Origin: Chloroflexia bacterium
GTDB lineage: Bacteria; Chloroflexota; Chloroflexia; Chloroheliales; Chloroheliaceae
Length of the DNA stretch: 64,000 nt
Direction of reading: 5' to 3'
Assembly (NCBI GenBank): GCA_038206175.1
Contig: JBBRBE010000002.1
Location: 12,966-76,965 of the forward strand
Positions 20,238 through 28,137 of the stretch are shown here, in pieces. Numbering within the stretch: the first letter of the stretch is position 1; every line of letters begins with the position of its first letter. The position numbers were made by a program, and so were the translations under genes. The notes under the pieces are model-generated. The model saw only the letters and a program-made list of their open reading frames with translations, made no database searches and was not told where the DNA came from.

Positions 20238-20774
20238 GTGACACAGGAACAAGAAGATAAGATATTAAATGGCTGGGACGTGGCCCTCACCCCGCAGGAT
20301 CGCTCGGCGGGCGGGGTGGTTTTTCGGCCTTACGTGCGGACGCGGGACAACAAGGCAGGCTATCTGGTTTGCCTGATCGAGCGGAGTCAGAGCGGTTGGT
20401 GGGATTTACCCAAAGGCCATCTGGAAGCCGGGGAAACCGAGGAGCAAGCCGCTCTGCGCGAAGTCGAAGAAGAGGCCGGGTTGCGCGGCGAGATCGTGGC
20501 GGGCCTGGGTGCTGCCCGTTATATCGCTGATACCCGCAAAGGCAGCTTGCGAAAGCAGGTGCGCTGGTATTTGATGCGCGATACTAATCCTAAACTGGAA
20601 AAGCCGCGCCCTCAGCCCGGCGAAACCCACGACGCTATCTGGTGCGATATTGACGACGCGATTGCACTGGTATATTTCGAGAACGCCCGCGTCATTCTCA
20701 AACGCGCCCGCCGGGTTCTTGCCAAAGGTAACTTTCAAGGTACCGAAACTGGCGGTTGGGGCGTTGGCATTTGA
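20238..20774 (+). CDS. NUDIX hydrolase (Ap4A-hydrolase-like)
   Basis: SAGGVV, WDLPKGHLEAGETEEQAALREVEEEAG Nudix box. Confidence 0.92.
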   Translation: MTQEQEDKILNGWDVALTPQDRSAGGVVFRPYVRTRDNKAGYLVCLIERSQSGWWDLPKGHLEAGETEEQAALREVEEEAGLRGEIVAGLGAARYIADTRKGSLRKQVRWYLMRDTNPKLEKPRPQPGETHDAIWCDIDDAIALVYFENARVILKRARRVLAKGNFQGTETGGWGVGI

Positions 20775-22046: not shown

Positions 22047-23918
22047 ATGACGATTGAAAATGACCACGACAGCCTGCGGGCCGGGCTATCTATGCCTGCC
22101 GAGCCTCGCCAAGATTTAGCCGCCAACGGCCTTAATCGCTCCCAAACCCTCTACCGTAAATGGCGTTCCCAGACTTTTGACCAACTGGTGGGCCAGGATG
22201 CCATTACGCGCACCCTGAAAAACGCGATAGCCAGTGGCCGGGTGGCGCACGCTTACCTTTTTTGCGGGCCGCGTGGTACCGGCAAGACTTCGACCGGGCG
22301 GTTGCTGGCAAAAGCAGTCAACTGCCTCGACCCCGACCCCCAGGTCCGGCCCTGCGACCGTTGCGAAGCCTGCCGTTCGATTGCCGAGGGTCGCGCCCTG
22401 GACTTGATCGAAATTGACGCCGCCAGTAATCGCGGTATTGATGAAGTGCGCGACCTGCGCGATAAGATTAATTTCCAGCCGTCTTTCCTCAAAAAGAAGG
22501 TTTACATCATTGACGAAGTGCATATGATGACCGAGGCGGCTTTTAACGCACTGCTCAAAACTCTGGAAGAGCCGCCCGCCCACGCTCTTTTCATACTCGC
22601 AACGACCGACCCGCAAGACATCCCGGCTACGGTACTTTCTCGCTGCCAGCGGTTCGATTTTCAGCGGATCGGCCTGGAAACTATCGCGGCACGGCTGGCC
22701 TACGTCTGCGAACAGGAAGGCGTGCCTTTCGAGCCGAGCGCACTTGATATGGTGGCTCGGCAGGCGACCGGCGCGATGCGCGACGCGCTTTCGCTGCTGG
22801 ATCAATTGATCGTTTTTAGCGGTGGGCGAATTACCCTGGAAGCCGTGCGGCTGATGCTGGGCGTGATGAATAGCGAAGCGGTGGCCGATTTTGTAGAGAA
22901 GTTGGCGACGAGCGATCTGTCCGGCGGTCTGGAAGGGATCAACCGCCTGGTGCAATCCGGCACGGACCTCAAGCGGTTCAATCGTGAACTGGTCGAGCAT
23001 TTGCGAAACTTGATGCTGCTCAAGGTCAACCCGCAGGGCCGCGAACTGACCGATCTGACCGCCGAGGCTCTGGCCCGGTTGCAAGACCAGGCTGCCCGAA
23101 TGGAAGGCGGAGCAATTCTAGGCTTTCTCAAAACCTTTAGCGCGGTAGATTACAACTTGAAAGTTTCGCCCTACGGCCAGTTACCGCTCGAAATCGCCCT
23201 GATGGAGAGCCTGTTACAACCGGCCCCTGCCCTAGCCAGCCCGCGCCCGGTTGCCGAGGTTACTCCGTCCCGCCCGGTGGCGGCTTCGGTTTCGGCGGCA
23301 ACCCGACCGTCTGCATACAATGGCTTACCTGCCTCTAAACCTGCGCCCGCCCCGGCCTGGTCTGCCGAGCCAGAGCAGGTTCCTCCGGTTGCGCCAGCCA
23401 TCGTCAGCCCGCCTGTTTCGGCTTCGGCTTCAATAGAAGTAACCGATACGACGCCTGCGCCCGAAGCTGTTTCGGTCGGCGAGGTTGTGCGCCTGGAACT
23501 AACTAGCGTTACGGGCCTGTGGTCGAAAGCGATGGATAGCATCAAGGCTCAGAATAAACTAACTGCGGCAATGCTGATCGCAGCCCGGCCCGTGGCGGTC
23601 AAGGGCAATCGCGTTTCGCTGGCTTTCGCTTATCCTTTCCACCGCAACAAGATCAACCAGGATGTCACCCGCCGCAACGTGGAGGATCATCTTTCTGCGG
23701 TTGTCGGGCAGCGCGTGGTAATCGAGTGTGTAGACGAAAGCGGAGACAGCGCGGTGCTTGAAGACAGCCCGGCCCGAAGTGAGGCTCCTTCCAACTCCAA
23801 CGAGCCGATCCCTTTTCGCCCTTCCTTCGAGGTTCCGGCTTCCACTACGGCTAAACCGCCCTCAAACGGACGCACCAAAGCCGCCCTGGACATTTTCAAC
23901 GCCCGCCTGATAGATTAG
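22047..23918 (+). CDS. dnaX: DNA polymerase III subunit gamma/tau
   Basis: LYRKWRSQTF, GPRGTGKT, CDRCEAC, EIDAASNRG, DEVHM, SRCQ; P/A/S-rich linker and C-terminal domain. Confidence 0.97.
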   Translation: MTIENDHDSLRAGLSMPAEPRQDLAANGLNRSQTLYRKWRSQTFDQLVGQDAITRTLKNAIASGRVAHAYLFCGPRGTGKTSTGRLLAKAVNCLDPDPQVRPCDRCEACRSIAEGRALDLIEIDAASNRGIDEVRDLRDKINFQPSFLKKKVYIIDEVHMMTEAAFNALLKTLEEPPAHALFILATTDPQDIPATVLSRCQRFDFQRIGLETIAARLAYVCEQEGVPFEPSALDMVARQATGAMRDALSLLDQLIVFSGGRITLEAVRLMLGVMNSEAVADFVEKLATSDLSGGLEGINRLVQSGTDLKRFNRELVEHLRNLMLLKVNPQGRELTDLTAEALARLQDQAARMEGGAILGFLKTFSAVDYNLKVSPYGQLPLEIALMESLLQPAPALASPRPVAEVTPSRPVAASVSAATRPSAYNGLPASKPAPAPAWSAEPEQVPPVAPAIVSPPVSASASIEVTDTTPAPEAVSVGEVVRLELTSVTGLWSKAMDSIKAQNKLTAAMLIAARPVAVKGNRVSLAFAYPFHRNKINQDVTRRNVEDHLSAVVGQRVVIECVDESGDSAVLEDSPARSEAPSNSNEPIPFRPSFEVPASTTAKPPSNGRTKAALDIFNARLID

Positions 23919-23979
23919 ATGTTCTTCGCATAAAAATAATAAAAAGGCAGAACTGTTGTCTTCAACTTGAGGAAAGATG

Positions 23980-25038
23980 CTAAGTGACTACATTCAAGAA
24001 GTCGAAAAGCTGGTCTATAAACCGTAAATATGCATTTGACTCTTCCACTAATAATTCGGTTAGATTATAGTAGGAAGTAATCAGCGGGTCTTATTTGATG
24101 CGATGATGAACTTCCGGCGTAATGCAACTTGCTAATAAAAGAGTAGCCACGCCGGGAGCAGTGCGTCGGACTTCCTCAAAAGATTTCTTTGCCTCACCGT
24201 ACCGCTCTAATGCCCCTGCCGGGTCTGCTCCGCCTTTAACTTCCAGTGCACACACGGTTGCGCCGTTCTGATCTAATAGTGATATATCCGGGTCGCTCGA
24301 AAACAAAATGGATGTACGATTGGTCAGCAAAACTCCCCGGTAACGTTCTATCTGCCCTAATTGTTCCTGTATTCTGATTGGGTCGTAAAGCTCTATCGCC
24401 TGTCCTTTTTGGGGGATAAGGGCTGCAAGTAAATTACGCTCTTTCACTTCCTTAACTAAAAGCCGTTGTACTACCTTCTCCGCTTCTTCCCCAATGGCAT
24501 TACGCCATGAGCCATCTATTTGTGCACCGGTGGAAGCAAGCAAAATACCATATAACTCTTCTTTGGTAATGCTCTGAATAGAAGAATCTACTATCAGCGT
24601 TATATGCTCGTTAAACAGGCGCACAAGCGTCAACGCTTGTGCCTCACTGAGTGAAAGGCGGTTTTGCGTATCGGTTTCTATTTTCTTTACATCTACCCCG
24701 GCTTTAGCAAGATAGCCCACTGATTTTTGCGAGAGTGCGGCAATATTCCGGTAGTAAGCTAATAACCGGGGATACTCCCGTATTAGCTTGGGATGGCAAA
24801 ACACCTGAAACAGGTGAAAATCAGAGTTCCCAGTAATGTATGTATAGGCATCCTCACCTATATTCCATTCACTACGTTCTTCCCATGCATAAAGGTGTTC
24901 AACTGAAAACAGTTCTGCAACCATGCCAGGAAAAGCAAGGGTGTTGTACTCTTTGAGCTTACGATAGAAAAAAGTAGAGCGTAGGCGGTAGTTGATACGG
25001 TTAGCTTCGGCTAGTAGTGCGGCTTCATCTGCTGCCAT
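23980..25038 (-). pseudogene. XcyI-family type II restriction endonuclease interrupted by an in-frame TAA at 24091-24093
   Basis: ATG at 25038 lies 2 nt after the MTase stop. GSWRNAIG, FSSDPDI, ALEVKGGADPAG (PD-D/ExK core). The frame continues 36 codons past the TAA (DPLITSYYNLTELL...NVVT) to TAG at 23980. Confidence 0.7.
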
Positions 25039-25040
25039 AG

Positions 25041-26510
25041 TCACCTTTTTTCCCACACATAAACACATTTGCGTAGCTCTGAACGGCCATGATTTCCCAT
25101 TTGCTGGCTGCTGTTACCTTTACCCCGTCCTAGTGTCCAGATTATTCGCGTGGTTAGTCCAAAAGTTTCCGCTATCTCCGATAAAATCAGGTCAACCGGG
25201 ACTTCTTCGCCTGCATACCGCACGTTGTCATTTACCATTGCTACAATACCCCCAGGTCGGATGAGGCGGGCGAGTTCAAAAATTACAAAGCACATTTCGT
25301 AAAAATAGTTCCTTACCAGGCGGGCTATATGTTCATTGTTAAGTTTCCCTGCGTCCCGGTATTGGTCGAGAATACCTAATACTTCGTGTAATGCCTGCTG
25401 CTGTTCAAACGTGCGGTCAACCAATATAAAGTCAGCGTTCCGACCTATGCTGGTGTAAAACTGCTGTAACTGCCCGCGCTTGTTTTTGTTCTCGACAGTG
25501 CAAGAAAGCATCTTTTGCCTCAACCGCTTTACGTCCTCGTGATTGTGTCCTAAAAAAACCAATTCAAGGGCGTAAGTTCGGGTGTAATCGTAGCGATTTG
25601 CATAAGGGGGCGAAGTCAGCACGAAATCAATACTACTTGATGCCATCATGGGTAATCTCTCAAGGCAGGAATCTTCTAACCGCTCAGGTTCAGGACCGGG
25701 CTGGATTGTTTCGTTAGCTTCTTCAAATAGTTGAGACTGAATCATGCCGCCTTTTAGCTCGGTAAGCATTTGTGATAGCTTTTCCTCAATGGCCTGACGA
25801 AATGGCCGAATAACGCCTTTATTAAAAGGTTTTTGGCCCTGTGAGCGGCCCGACCGAAAATCCCAGCGTAAATATTGACCATCTTTCCGTGTATAACTGA
25901 TGTCCTCCAGAATGCAGAATGCGGCAAATAGTAGTAGGGTCTGTATATCCACATCTTTTACCTGCTGGCGACAATAAGCAATATAACCTATTAGCTGGCG
26001 TTCTTCCTCCTCTGGAAATGCCCCTTTTGTAATGGCAATATGGTCTAGGACGTGCTTCTCATCGTAGTATTTCTGAAAATCCAATGAGGCTAAACGGCTG
26101 ATGGCTAGATCAAAGCTGGTAATATCAATACGGGCTGCAACCAGACGAGCCTGCATCGCATAGATGCCAACTGGCAAAACCTCGATGCCCTTCGTCTGCC
26201 AACCTTGCTCCCTCGCCGCAAACAGGGCCGCTCCAGCTCCGGCAAACGGGTCTAGCAAAATTCCAGTGGATTGCGGCCAAAGTTGTTCCAGAAGGTAAGT
26301 TACTAAGCGTTGTGAAAACCCTTCCTTGTATTTGAACCAGGAATAAAAAGGGGTACGTTTATTAGCTTGAAAACTAACAAGCGTTCTGTCTAAAGCTGGA
26401 TTTTGAACAATGCATTTCTGATATTTTTGATAGAGAATGTCTCGGGCCTGGGTAGGAGTAGGGTCGCTACTCAGGTCCTCCTTGAACGTTTCAGCTAATG
26501 TAGTAAGCAT
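25041..26510 (-). CDS. amino-DNA methyltransferase, probably m4C, alpha-type motif order
   Basis: WFKYKEGFS, LDPFAGAG (SAM binding) precedes VLTSPPY (catalytic motif IV); coupled to the REase; AT-rich relative to flanks. Confidence 0.9.
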   Translation of the reverse strand: MLTTLAETFKEDLSSDPTPTQARDILYQKYQKCIVQNPALDRTLVSFQANKRTPFYSWFKYKEGFSQRLVTYLLEQLWPQSTGILLDPFAGAGAALFAAREQGWQTKGIEVLPVGIYAMQARLVAARIDITSFDLAISRLASLDFQKYYDEKHVLDHIAITKGAFPEEEERQLIGYIAYCRQQVKDVDIQTLLLFAAFCILEDISYTRKDGQYLRWDFRSGRSQGQKPFNKGVIRPFRQAIEEKLSQMLTELKGGMIQSQLFEEANETIQPGPEPERLEDSCLERLPMMASSSIDFVLTSPPYANRYDYTRTYALELVFLGHNHEDVKRLRQKMLSCTVENKNKRGQLQQFYTSIGRNADFILVDRTFEQQQALHEVLGILDQYRDAGKLNNEHIARLVRNYFYEMCFVIFELARLIRPGGIVAMVNDNVRYAGEEVPVDLILSEIAETFGLTTRIIWTLGRGKGNSSQQMGNHGRSELRKCVYVWEKR

Positions 26511-26643
26511 TAAAAATCCCTGTCTTTGTTACACGGCTGCGCGTCATAATTAGCAAAAAGAATACGACAATTCTAACACAAGAGTATTGCAATAAAAAAC
26601 ACCCCTGCCATAGGTGTTTCTTTCACTACTAGCACTTGCCAGC

Positions 26644-28137
26644 CTAGATTTTGACAAGGGCGGTGCGGTCTTCGGCGTTGGAGTCTCCTTGAGGGGCCGG
26701 GGTTAGGCTGGAAAGCTCGGTTCCATAGAGGCGCGGCAGATACAGGTGGAAGGTCGTACCCTTCTTCTCGTGGCTTTCGACTGTAACCCGCCCGTGGTGC
26801 CGCTCGACGATAGACTTGACGATGTAGAGGCCCAGGCCGTGTCCTCCGACTTGCTTGCCTTCGGCGGTCTGTTTGCCCGGCTTGAAAATCTCGGCGCGGT
26901 CTTCGGCGTTAATCAGTGCGCCATCGTTCCAGACCCATACTTCTAACTCCTCGGTATCCACCGTGCCGGGCTTGCGAATAGTGCGAAGCCCCACCCCGAT
27001 ACCCTGTAAGCTGAACTTGCGGGCATTGCTCAAGAGGTTCAAAAGGGCGTGTTCCATCAGGCTAGGATCAATTGTCCACTCTCTGGCTTCGATATTGCGT
27101 TGCACGCTATAACCCCGCAAGTCCACCAGTTGCAATACTTTATCTACCATTCCGCTCAGGTTTACCGGCTTAAGCTCTAGCTGTTGTTCGCGGCGGGCCA
27201 GCACCTCGCTGATCGTCGCTACGCTCAAGTCAGCCATTTCGATCACTTTGTCAAGGTTCTCGTAGACATCCTCTGGTAGGTCGGGGTGGAGAATCGTCGA
27301 AAGTTCGGCTAGCCCCTTGATGCTGCTCAGGGGCGATTTCAGGTCGTGGCGCACCGTCGTTAGCATGTCCCGGTTGATGTTTACCTCGGCTTGCAACACA
27401 TTTAACTGGTCGGTCAGATGCCCGGTTTGCTTCCACAATAGCTGGGTCAAGTTATCGTTGAGGCGACGGAGCGGCCCAATTACCGAAGACATTACAAAAG
27501 CTACCACCAACCCGCCGATGAGTCCCACCACCAGGGCCAGCCAGAGGGTCGCCTGGGCTGCCTCGGTTTGAACCGTATCGGAGCGAGTAGCCGCACTCAT
27601 GGCCTGGCTGTTAGCCAGGTTCAGGCGAGTATCAAGCAACCCCAGCAATTTTTGAATTTCGGCTTCGGCTTCTTCCCAGAGGGCGCGAGCTTCGGCGGTA
27701 CGTCCCGCTTCGTTGGTGCTTATAATCCGGGTGTAAAATTCTTTTAGATAATCGTGGACAACAATGAGCGGATAAACTAACTCGTTTCGGGTTACAAGTA
27801 TATTGATTTCTTGCTGAAAATCATCTTCGTGCTGGCTCAGCCTGGGGTCGGACTGGCCGGTGTAGAGCGTGTTTAACAGGCTTACTCGTTCGTTAACGAG
27901 AGCTTCCCGCAGGCGTTGAAGCTGATTGGCGGTGGTTTGCTGGTCCAGAGCCTGATGGCTGCTATCTTTGCCCTGGTTAATATTGTAGAGCGATACAATA
28001 GTTAGAATGACCAGTACCGCCAGCATCAGTACGAAAGCAGCGATCACTTTTAGCACCAGAGGCTCGGTAAACCGGCTGGTGCTGGTGCCAATATTGTCGC
28101 GTGTAAGGGGCGGCGGCGAAAGTTTGCTCGAACTCAT
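26644..28137 (-). CDS. membrane sensor histidine kinase (helical extracellular domain, HisKA, HATPase)
   Basis: Two TM segments; RHDLKSPL, NLLSNARKF, GHGLGL, GTTF. Confidence 0.92.
   Translation of the reverse strand: MSSSKLSPPPLTRDNIGTSTSRFTEPLVLKVIAAFVLMLAVLVILTIVSLYNINQGKDSSHQALDQQTTANQLQRLREALVNERVSLLNTLYTGQSDPRLSQHEDDFQQEINILVTRNELVYPLIVVHDYLKEFYTRIISTNEAGRTAEARALWEEAEAEIQKLLGLLDTRLNLANSQAMSAATRSDTVQTEAAQATLWLALVVGLIGGLVVAFVMSSVIGPLRRLNDNLTQLLWKQTGHLTDQLNVLQAEVNINRDMLTTVRHDLKSPLSSIKGLAELSTILHPDLPEDVYENLDKVIEMADLSVATISEVLARREQQLELKPVNLSGMVDKVLQLVDLRGYSVQRNIEAREWTIDPSLMEHALLNLLSNARKFSLQGIGVGLRTIRKPGTVDTEELEVWVWNDGALINAEDRAEIFKPGKQTAEGKQVGGHGLGLYIVKSIVERHHGRVTVESHEKKGTTFHLYLPRLYGTELSSLTPAPQGDSNAEDRTALVKI

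What the first reader, a model, noticed from the sequence alone, without database searches (positions are those of the whole stretch)
23980..26510. Restriction enzyme disarmed by a single in-frame stop beside an intact methyltransferase
The REase reads ...EVHHRIK-TAA-DPLITSYYNLTELLVEESNAYLRFIDQLFDFLNVVT-TAG. The 36 codons after the TAA are stop-free and protein-like, consistent with a CAA>TAA or similar change removing the C-terminal helices. The MTase is intact. The pair is AT-rich and inserted directly after dnaX, where ybaB-recR often follow. This suggests R-M decay to an orphan MTase, or a reversible off state.
Basis: partly seen in the sequence, partly recalled or inferred. Interest (0 to 1): 0.65.

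Follow-up and report, generated by a model that had tools for sequence, protein, structure and literature searches.

The report
Restriction enzyme gene killed by one stop
A horizontally acquired restriction-modification gene pair in an uncultured Chloroflexota bacterium has lost its DNA-cutting enzyme to a single CAA-to-TAA nonsense mutation while keeping its methylase, which is a real but ordinary example of how such defence systems decay.

Summary
On the minus strand, a 315-codon XcyI/BsoBI-like Type II restriction endonuclease gene (25038..24091) ends at TAA. The next 36 stop-free codons (24090..23983) are the family's conserved C-terminus.

- 115 of 117 non-identical homologs run about 35-40 residues past this point.
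- The tail alone matches the C-termini of 107 of 117 homologs (best E 1e-16).
- The homologous codon is CAA in a 74%-identical relative.
- The TAA is present in contigs from three other metagenome runs of one study, in the same dnaX-flanked locus (flanks seen in two of them).
- The tail is modelled with confidence as a β-strand plus two helices of a BsoBI-like fold, so the truncated product is most likely inactive.
- Two sub-lineages have each since gained a missense change at an otherwise invariant REase residue (R18C, A282E), which fits relaxed selection.
- The 489-aa methyltransferase immediately upstream is full length and keeps 158 of 159 invariant columns.

There is no repeat tract or polymorphism that would support a switchable "off" state. 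The verdict is recent pseudogenisation of the REase, leaving an orphan methyltransferase in the making. This is a known phenomenon in an uncharacterised clade of a known family. The most unusual thing seen was incidental: extreme avoidance of 6-bp palindromes across the whole window.

The parts
24091..25038 (-). Truncated REase ORF (315 codons plus TAA), XcyI/BsoBI-like Type II restriction endonuclease. Catalytic PD...E-V-K motif at D251, E266 and K268. Window-specific A282E at 24194.
24091..24093 (-). Premature TAA stop at codon 316. Homologs have Q, R, N, H or D here; the codon is CAA in L005.
23980..24090 (-). Stranded C-terminal coding remnant: 36 codons plus the original TAG stop. It corresponds to the conserved strand plus two helices of the family.
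25041..26510 (-). Intact 489-aa DNA methyltransferase. Motif I (DPFAGAGA) is N-terminal and SPPY lies about 210 residues later, the alpha-class order. Its stop lies 2 nt before the REase ATG.
23919..26643 (.). Low-G+C island (about 45% against about 53-63% in the flanks) holding the M-R cassette, between dnaX (stop 23918, + strand) and a histidine kinase gene (stop 26644, - strand). No flanking repeats found.

Best explanation
A two-gene Type II restriction-modification cassette was acquired horizontally by an uncultured Chloroflexota bacterium and sits between dnaX and a histidine kinase gene. It has a methyltransferase first and a BsoBI/XcyI-like PD-(D/E)XK endonuclease second.

A single C>T transition later changed Gln codon 316 (CAA) of the endonuclease to TAA. 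That removes the last 36 residues. These form a conserved β-strand and two helices that I infer to belong to the catalytic α/β domain, so the product is most probably misfolded or inactive (inferred). The allele is fixed in the sampled populations, and the dead gene has begun to collect further damaging substitutions.

The methyltransferase remains intact and presumably goes on methylating its target (inferred). The locus is therefore an R-M system caught early in decay towards a solitary methyltransferase. The recognition sequence is unknown. A C^NNNNG-type site such as CCCGGG or CYCGRG is only a guess from the family.
For: - The stop and the tail are as described.
- Family: Pfam RE_XcyI 9e-23 with a weak BsoBI hit. 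BsoBI 1dc1 is the only significant fold match (E 1.3e-7, prob 1.0). The catalytic segment EVKGGADPAGALERYGAAKK aligns with BsoBI ELKGGIDPAGADEHWKTA.
- Only the three near-identical sequences among the top 120 homologs end at residue 315; 115 end at query positions 340-365.
- The tail is conserved (D317, I320, Y323, N325, L326, T327, L330, F340, F345 at >=90%). It matches homolog C-termini at E down to 1e-16.
- The AF2 model has mean pLDDT 84.7. Its tail is strand 322-325 plus helices 326-330 and 335-350, with pLDDT 84-88 up to residue 350.
- CAA stands at the homologous codon in L005.
- The same TAA occurs in the same dnaX-R-M-HisK context in Logan contigs of two other runs, 99.95-99.98% identical over 5-13 kb. 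It is also in a third run.
- Of the 4 substitutions among the three strains in 12.9 kb, 2 lie in the 948-nt REase. Both are non-synonymous, derived, and at positions invariant in all other homologs: R18C in L001 and A282E in the window. P(>=2 of 4 in the REase) = 0.029.
- MTase: 489 aa against 483-500 in homologs at 100% coverage. It keeps 158 of 159 invariant columns and matches PADLOC MTase_II PDLC03224 end to end at 1e-131.
- The cassette is mobile: M lies immediately upstream of R in about 75 of 80 GTDB loci, and the flanking genes differ in every locus examined. Its G+C is about 45% against about 53-63%.
- TAA is the commonest genuine stop in the window, 16 of 30 long ORFs.
- REase disruption recurs in this family: about 10 of 80 loci carry stops or frameshifts.
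Against: - No biochemical evidence shows that the 315-aa product is inactive. The catalytic PD...EVK residues are all upstream of the stop.
- Only assembled contigs could be examined, not raw reads, so a minority CAA allele cannot be excluded.
- The three supporting runs are different samples of one study, so geographical independence is limited.
- The relaxed-selection signal rests on two substitutions (P about 0.03).
- MTase activity is assumed. It carries one deviation, G280D, at a column invariant in 24 homologs.
- No intact allele closer than 83% identity and no empty site were found, so neither the insertion nor the timing is directly documented.
Confidence: 0.82

Rival explanations
1. 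The truncated 315-aa endonuclease is still active or partly active, so the R-M system is attenuated but functional rather than dead.
For: All catalytic-motif residues (D251, E266, K268) and 89% of the protein precede the stop. The allele persists in several samples.
Against: The tail is retained by 115 of 117 homologs and holds nine >=90%-conserved residues. It is predicted as a β-strand plus two helices at pLDDT 84-88, not a disordered appendix. Two sub-lineages have non-conservative changes at invariant residues, the opposite of purifying selection.
Confidence: 0.08
2. The stop is a reversible 'off' state: a population-level switch in which TAA<->CAA reversion turns restriction back on.
For: One transition would restore the ORF. 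The tail is still free of stops and frameshifts and keeps all conserved residues.
Against: There is no homopolymer or short-repeat tract at or near the site. No alternative base at 24091-24093 appears in any contig of runs X1-X3. No intact allele above 83% identity exists among 5.8 billion proteins. Second-site missense changes at invariant residues in two sub-lineages would not be undone by reversion. The intact tail is explained just as well by a recent mutation.
Confidence: 0.04
3. Full-length enzyme is still made at a low level by translational read-through of the TAA or another recoding event.
For: The downstream frame is intact for exactly the family's normal length, 352 aa, as in P0018.
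Against: TAA is the most used genuine stop codon in this window, 16 of 30 long ORFs. No structure or repeat suggestive of recoding lies near the stop. From general knowledge, UAA is the least leaky stop in bacteria. The missense hits argue against selection on the product.
Confidence: 0.03
4. The stop is a sequencing or assembly error and the gene is intact.
For: None found.
Against: The same TAA is present in the window and in independently assembled contigs of three other runs, at word depths of about 7, 26 and 2.5. These contigs differ from the window elsewhere, so they are not copies of it.
Confidence: 0.02

Closest known systems
BsoBI / AvaI (C^YCGRG) Type IIP restriction endonucleases (Pfam PF09194; PDB 1dc1)
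   Same: BsoBI is the only significant fold match for the full-length family model (E 1.3e-7, TM about 0.5, aligned over the whole length). The catalytic segment E-x-K-G-G-x-D-P-A-G-A is shared. As I recall from Ruan et al. 1996, the AvaI system also has M before R and an N4-cytosine MTase with SPPY-type motifs; this was not checked here.
   Different: Sequence similarity is marginal (Pfam E 0.0027, PDB HMM E 0.11). R279 aligns with BsoBI's proposed catalytic His253 by my count from the alignment; the His253 role is from memory. The specificity of the window's family is unknown.
XcyI / Cfr9I / XmaI (C^CCGGG) restriction endonucleases (Pfam PF09571)
   Same: This is the best-scoring curated family (9.2e-23, above the gathering score). 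NCBI names homologs 'XcyI family restriction endonuclease'.
   Different: The best-scoring matched stretch covers only profile positions 54-171 of 305, so this is a distant clade. The partner MTase here is a 489-aa alpha-order enzyme. As I recall, M.XcyI is about 300 aa with the beta order; this was not tested.
Orphan (solitary) DNA methyltransferases arising from decayed R-M systems
   Same: An intact MTase sits beside a REase disabled by a point mutation. The same pattern appears in about 10 of 80 related loci. The general phenomenon is documented, e.g. Seshasayee et al. 2012 and Oliveira et al. 2014 (from memory).
   Different: Here the decay is very recent. The REase remnant is complete apart from one codon, and the MTase has not been shown to have any host function.

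Membership tests
XcyI-family restriction endonuclease (Pfam PF09571) | Sequence match to the family HMM above the curated gathering score | tested here: met
   81.4 bits against a cut-off of 25, E 9.2e-23. The best-scoring of the two matched stretches covers profile positions 54-171 of 305.
XcyI-family restriction endonuclease (Pfam PF09571) | Recognition and cleavage of C^CCGGG | not testable with these tools
   CCCGGG occurs 0 times in the window against 27-47 expected. Eleven other palindromic hexamers are also absent, so this is not diagnostic.
PD-(D/E)XK Type IIP REase with BsoBI-like fold | PD...(D/E)xK catalytic motif on a central β-sheet | tested here: met
   D251, E266 and K268 are invariant in 38 sequences. 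They lie at or on predicted strands 252-255 and 261-268 and align with the BsoBI E-L-K segment.
PD-(D/E)XK Type IIP REase with BsoBI-like fold | Overall fold similarity to a solved member | tested here: met
   Foldseek 1dc1_A E 1.3e-7, prob 1.00, TM 0.49/0.54. The next hit has E 0.014. The model is of the full-length homolog P0018, not of the window protein.
Functional Type II R-M system | Full-length REase ORF | tested here: not met
   A TAA at codon 316 removes 36 conserved residues.
Functional Type II R-M system | Adjacent cognate MTase, full length with catalytic motifs | tested here: met
   489 aa with 100% coverage against homologs. Motif I DPFAGAGA and motif IV SPPY are invariant. PADLOC MTase_II 1e-131. 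M lies immediately upstream of R in about 75 of 80 related loci.
Orphan methyltransferase derived from an R-M system | MTase is enzymatically active in the absence of an active cognate REase | not testable with these tools
   Needs a methylome (SMRT or Nanopore) or an in-vitro assay.
Phase-variable R-M system | Simple-sequence repeat or invertible element at the switching site, with both states seen in populations | tested here: not met
   No repeat at or near 24091-24093. Only TAA is seen in contigs of 3 runs, though contigs hide rare variants.

The most novel reading that the evidence does not exclude
In this Chloroflexota lineage nearly all G+C-rich 6-bp palindromes have been purged from the chromosome (observed/expected 0.04-0.10). 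A Type II R-M cassette would then have almost no self-targets and lose its 'addictive' hold on the host. R and M genes could decay in either order. The shared, population-wide truncated REase might even be kept as a non-cleaving, sequence-specific DNA-binding or dominant-negative subunit rather than being mere debris.
Probability: 0.05. Interest if true: 0.5.

Novelty: new member of a known kind. Interest (0 to 1): 0.2.

Why it matters
The locus is a clean, very young example of how Type II R-M systems die. One transition kills the nuclease, the methylase survives, and further damaging substitutions follow within an otherwise 99.95%-identical population. That is useful as an annotation correction (pseudogene, not a 315-aa REase) and as a data point on orphan-MTase origins. 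It does not change any concept. The cassette belongs to a large, uncharacterised BsoBI/XcyI-like clade common in Chloroflexota and Cyanobacteria. Repairing codon 316 would give a testable enzyme of unknown specificity.

Tried and rejected
- **Empty-site comparison.** I looked for a related genome with dnaX next to the histidine kinase and no cassette. The metagenome scan with DnaX gave relatives of 60% identity or less, with no synteny beyond dnaX. Two Chloroflexota relatives (62-66% DnaX identity) have unrelated downstream genes. The insertion therefore remains inferred from G+C content and the cassette's varied contexts.
- **An intact close allele.** None exists above 83% identity among 5.8 billion proteins.
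- **Raw-read check for a minority CAA allele.** All holding runs are kept only as contigs. X4 and X5 do not cover the stop.
- **Specificity from site avoidance.** CCCGGG and CTCGAG are absent and CYCGRG occurs once. About 30 of 64 palindromic hexamers are equally depleted, so nothing can be assigned.
- **Flanking repeats, promoters and terminators.** Nothing beyond chance.
- **NCBIfam.** No informative hit for the REase.
- **Stop-codon reassignment.** Rejected, because TAA is the commonest stop in the window.
- **Residue contacts of the tail.** I could not obtain model coordinates. Its structural role is inferred from secondary structure, confidence and conservation only.

Full report
**1. The observation**

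On the minus strand an ORF runs from 25068, or more likely from ATG 25038, to a TAA at 24093..24091 and ends ...ITPEVHHRIK. In the same frame 36 sense codons follow (DPLITSYYNLTELLVEESNAYLRFIDQLFDFLNVVT), and then TAG at 23982..23980. Immediately upstream is a 489-codon ORF (26510..25041) with no interruption. Its TGA lies 2 nt before the REase ATG. dnaX (22047..23918, + strand) converges on the pair. A histidine kinase gene (stop at 26644, minus strand) lies on the other side. G+C is 43-48% across 23.8-26.6 kb and about 53-63% in the adjacent windows.

**2. Is the tail more than chance?**

Thirty-six stop-free codons in AT-rich DNA are not remarkable on their own; my estimate from composition is about 0.1. 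Homology settles the question.
- A search with the read-through product returned 484 relatives. Those listed are typically 347-360 aa and cover 98-100% of the 352-aa query.
- In the alignment, homologs continue past the stop with (Q/R/N)DPLISSYYNLTE.L.E.S..Y..F...VF..L, which matches the window's tail.
- Among the top 120 hits, only the window protein and two near-identical sequences end at residue 315. Another 115 end at query positions 340-365. Two (P0114, P0051) diverge just after DPL and look like independent disruptions.
- The 36-aa tail alone hits the extreme C-terminus of 107 of 117 homologs at E<1e-3, best 1e-16. Twenty shuffled tails reached 0.002 at best.
- The nine tail positions conserved at >=90% (D317, I320, Y323, N325, L326, T327, L330, F340, F345) are all still present in the window's remnant, by my comparison with the translation.
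- The column of the stop is mostly Q. In L005 (P0018, 74% identical, also exactly 352 aa) the codon is CAA, so a single C>T transition accounts for the TAA.

**3. Is the stop real?**

Two Logan contigs from other runs (SRR24807096, 26 kb; SRR19962015, 5 kb) carry the same HisK-M-R-dnaX arrangement and the same TAA. They are 99.95% and 99.98% identical to the window over 12.9 and 5.0 kb, yet differ from it at a few sites, so they are separate assemblies of closely related populations. Laying contigs of runs X1-X3 on the region shows no other base at 24091-24093. A third run contributes a 295-nt contig across the stop with no differences. These are contigs, not reads, so rare variants would be invisible. 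The three runs are different samples of one study. TAA is the commonest terminator of long ORFs in the window (16 of 30), so there is no hint of codon reassignment.

**4. What the genes are**

*The REase.* It matches Pfam RE_XcyI (9.2e-23) and has a weak hit to the BsoBI family over the catalytic segment. An AlphaFold2 model of the full-length homolog P0018, built with 38 sequences, has mean pLDDT 84.7. Its only significant PDB match is BsoBI, 1dc1 (E 1.3e-7, probability 1.0, aligned over the whole length). A profile search of PDB sequences aligns EVKGGADPAGALERYGAAKK with BsoBI ELKGGIDPAGADEHWKTA. The invariant D251, E266 and K268 form the PD...ExK motif.

*The MTase.* It has motif I (DPFAGAGA) near the N-terminus and SPPY about 210 residues later, which is the alpha order; SPPY is commonest in N4-cytosine enzymes (general knowledge). 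It gives weak N6_N4_Mtase hits and hits to solved N4-cytosine MTases over motif I. It matches a PADLOC Type II MTase model end to end at 1e-131.

*The cassette.* In about 75 of 80 GTDB loci that encode a REase relative, an MTase homolog lies immediately upstream. This is a conserved M-R cassette, widespread in Chloroflexota (Ktedonobacteria, Chloroflexia) and Cyanobacteria, with scattered archaeal and other hosts. The surrounding genes differ in every locus examined, as expected of a mobile unit. The host of the window is an uncultured Chloroflexota: the best DnaX relatives are 63-66% identical and are named 'Chloroflexia bacterium'.

**5. Consequence of the truncation**

Shown:
- In the model the stop falls at the end of helix 308-316.
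- The lost part is strand 322-325, helix 326-330 and helix 335-350, with block pLDDT of 84-88 up to residue 350.
- These residues are conserved and retained by nearly all homologs.

Inferred:
- Losing what I take to be an edge strand of the catalytic α/β domain plus the terminal helix will abolish folding, dimerisation or DNA enclosure. As I recall, the BsoBI structure paper describes the monomer as a helical domain inserted into an EcoRI-type catalytic domain, which would place the C-terminus in the catalytic domain.
- I could not inspect coordinates, so this step remains inference.

**6. Signs of decay after the stop**

Across the 12.9 kb shared by the three assemblies there are only four substitutions and two 1-nt indels. 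Two of the four substitutions lie in the 948-nt REase gene.
- A282E is specific to the window (24194).
- R18C is specific to L001 (24987).

Both are derived, non-conservative, and at columns otherwise invariant in the aligned homologs. The chance of two or more of four substitutions falling in the REase is 0.029. The other two are P59L in a neighbouring small gene of unknown family and a change at 20666 that I read by hand as synonymous (GCA>GCG) in the NUDIX gene, using the frame printed and the gene position. This is a small sample, but it points to relaxed selection, not to maintenance of a shortened enzyme. By contrast the MTase has no differences among the three assemblies. It deviates from 24 homologs at only one of 159 invariant columns (G280D), which is within the 0-4 deviations seen in the intact REase homologs used as controls.

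**7. Alternatives**

- *Switchable 'off' state.* There is no homopolymer or short repeat at the site, no alternative allele in contigs, and no intact allele above 83% identity in the protein collection. The second-site hits would also survive a reversion.
- *Read-through.* This is unlikely, because TAA is the normal stop here and nothing resembling a recoding signal was found.
- *Assembly error.* This is excluded for practical purposes.
- *Residual activity.* This cannot be excluded without an assay. The catalytic residues are all present.

**8. The 'inserted after dnaX' remark**

Low G+C and the cassette's varied contexts support horizontal acquisition. I found no empty site, because relatives share no synteny downstream of dnaX. 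In the two Chloroflexota relatives examined, dnaX is followed by an M28 peptidase or by tsaD, not by ybaB-recR. One of them (MAG GCA_038322625.1) carries its copy of the cassette next to rpoC. The idea that the cassette displaced ybaB-recR is not supported for this clade.

**9. Comparison with what is known, and verdict**

REase genes inactivated beside intact MTases are a well-known route to solitary methyltransferases (general knowledge). Within this very family about 10 of 80 genomes show REase stops or frameshifts. The window's case is a clear, very recent instance in an uncharacterised clade of a known superfamily. Interest is low.

The more unusual thing seen was incidental. The whole window, and relatives of this lineage, almost lack G+C-rich 6-bp palindromes.

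Noticed in passing
window 1-64000 (also L166, L086, L005, L167): 6-bp palindromes are avoided to an extreme degree. Twelve of the 64 palindromic hexamers occur 0 times (CCCGGG, CGCGCG, GGCGCC, GGGCCC, CCTAGG, CGATCG, CGTACG, CTCGAG, GAGCTC, GGATCC, TCCGGA, TTCGAA; 12-27 expected each from base composition) and about 30 occur twice or less. Only 14 of 4032 non-palindromic hexamers occur once or less. For G+C-rich palindromes observed/expected is 0.10 in the window, 0.04 in the nearest DnaX relative's contig, and about 1.0 in an unrelated MAG. Four-base palindromes are not comparably depleted.
   Followed up: partly
P0161, P0193, P0200, P0238; L044: In some metagenome and Ktedonobacteraceae sequences the MTase and REase are called as one 843-852-aa protein carrying both Pfam domains. 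These are either natural M-R fusions (the genes are only 2 nt apart here) or frameshift or assembly artefacts.
   Followed up: no
L020 (Nostoc MAG), L030 (Richelia MAG), L055: These loci have a frameshifted or stop-containing MTase homolog beside an apparently intact REase. That is the 'forbidden' order of loss unless the genome lacks target sites or another MTase protects it. They could also be MAG assembly errors.
   Followed up: no
L027, L031, L042, L049, L050, L052, L056, L062, L075, L079: Independent REase disruptions (in-frame stops, frameshifts, truncations) occur in about 10 of 80 genomes carrying this cassette. Two of them (P0114 = L031, and P0051) are again near the C-terminus, just after the DPL motif.
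   Followed up: partly
window 25672 (MTase codon 280): The MTase has Asp where all 24 aligned homologs have Gly (G280D, in ...EPERLEDSCLERLP...). The change is shared by all three assemblies. Its effect on activity is unknown.
   Followed up: no
L003 / L006 (contig_27258, 107951 bp): The closest genome-borne intact REase (79% identity) lies in a MAG labelled Acidobacteriota. Its neighbouring MTase is only 44% identical to the window's and its contig shows no palindrome avoidance. This suggests cassette shuffling or recent transfer.
   Followed up: no
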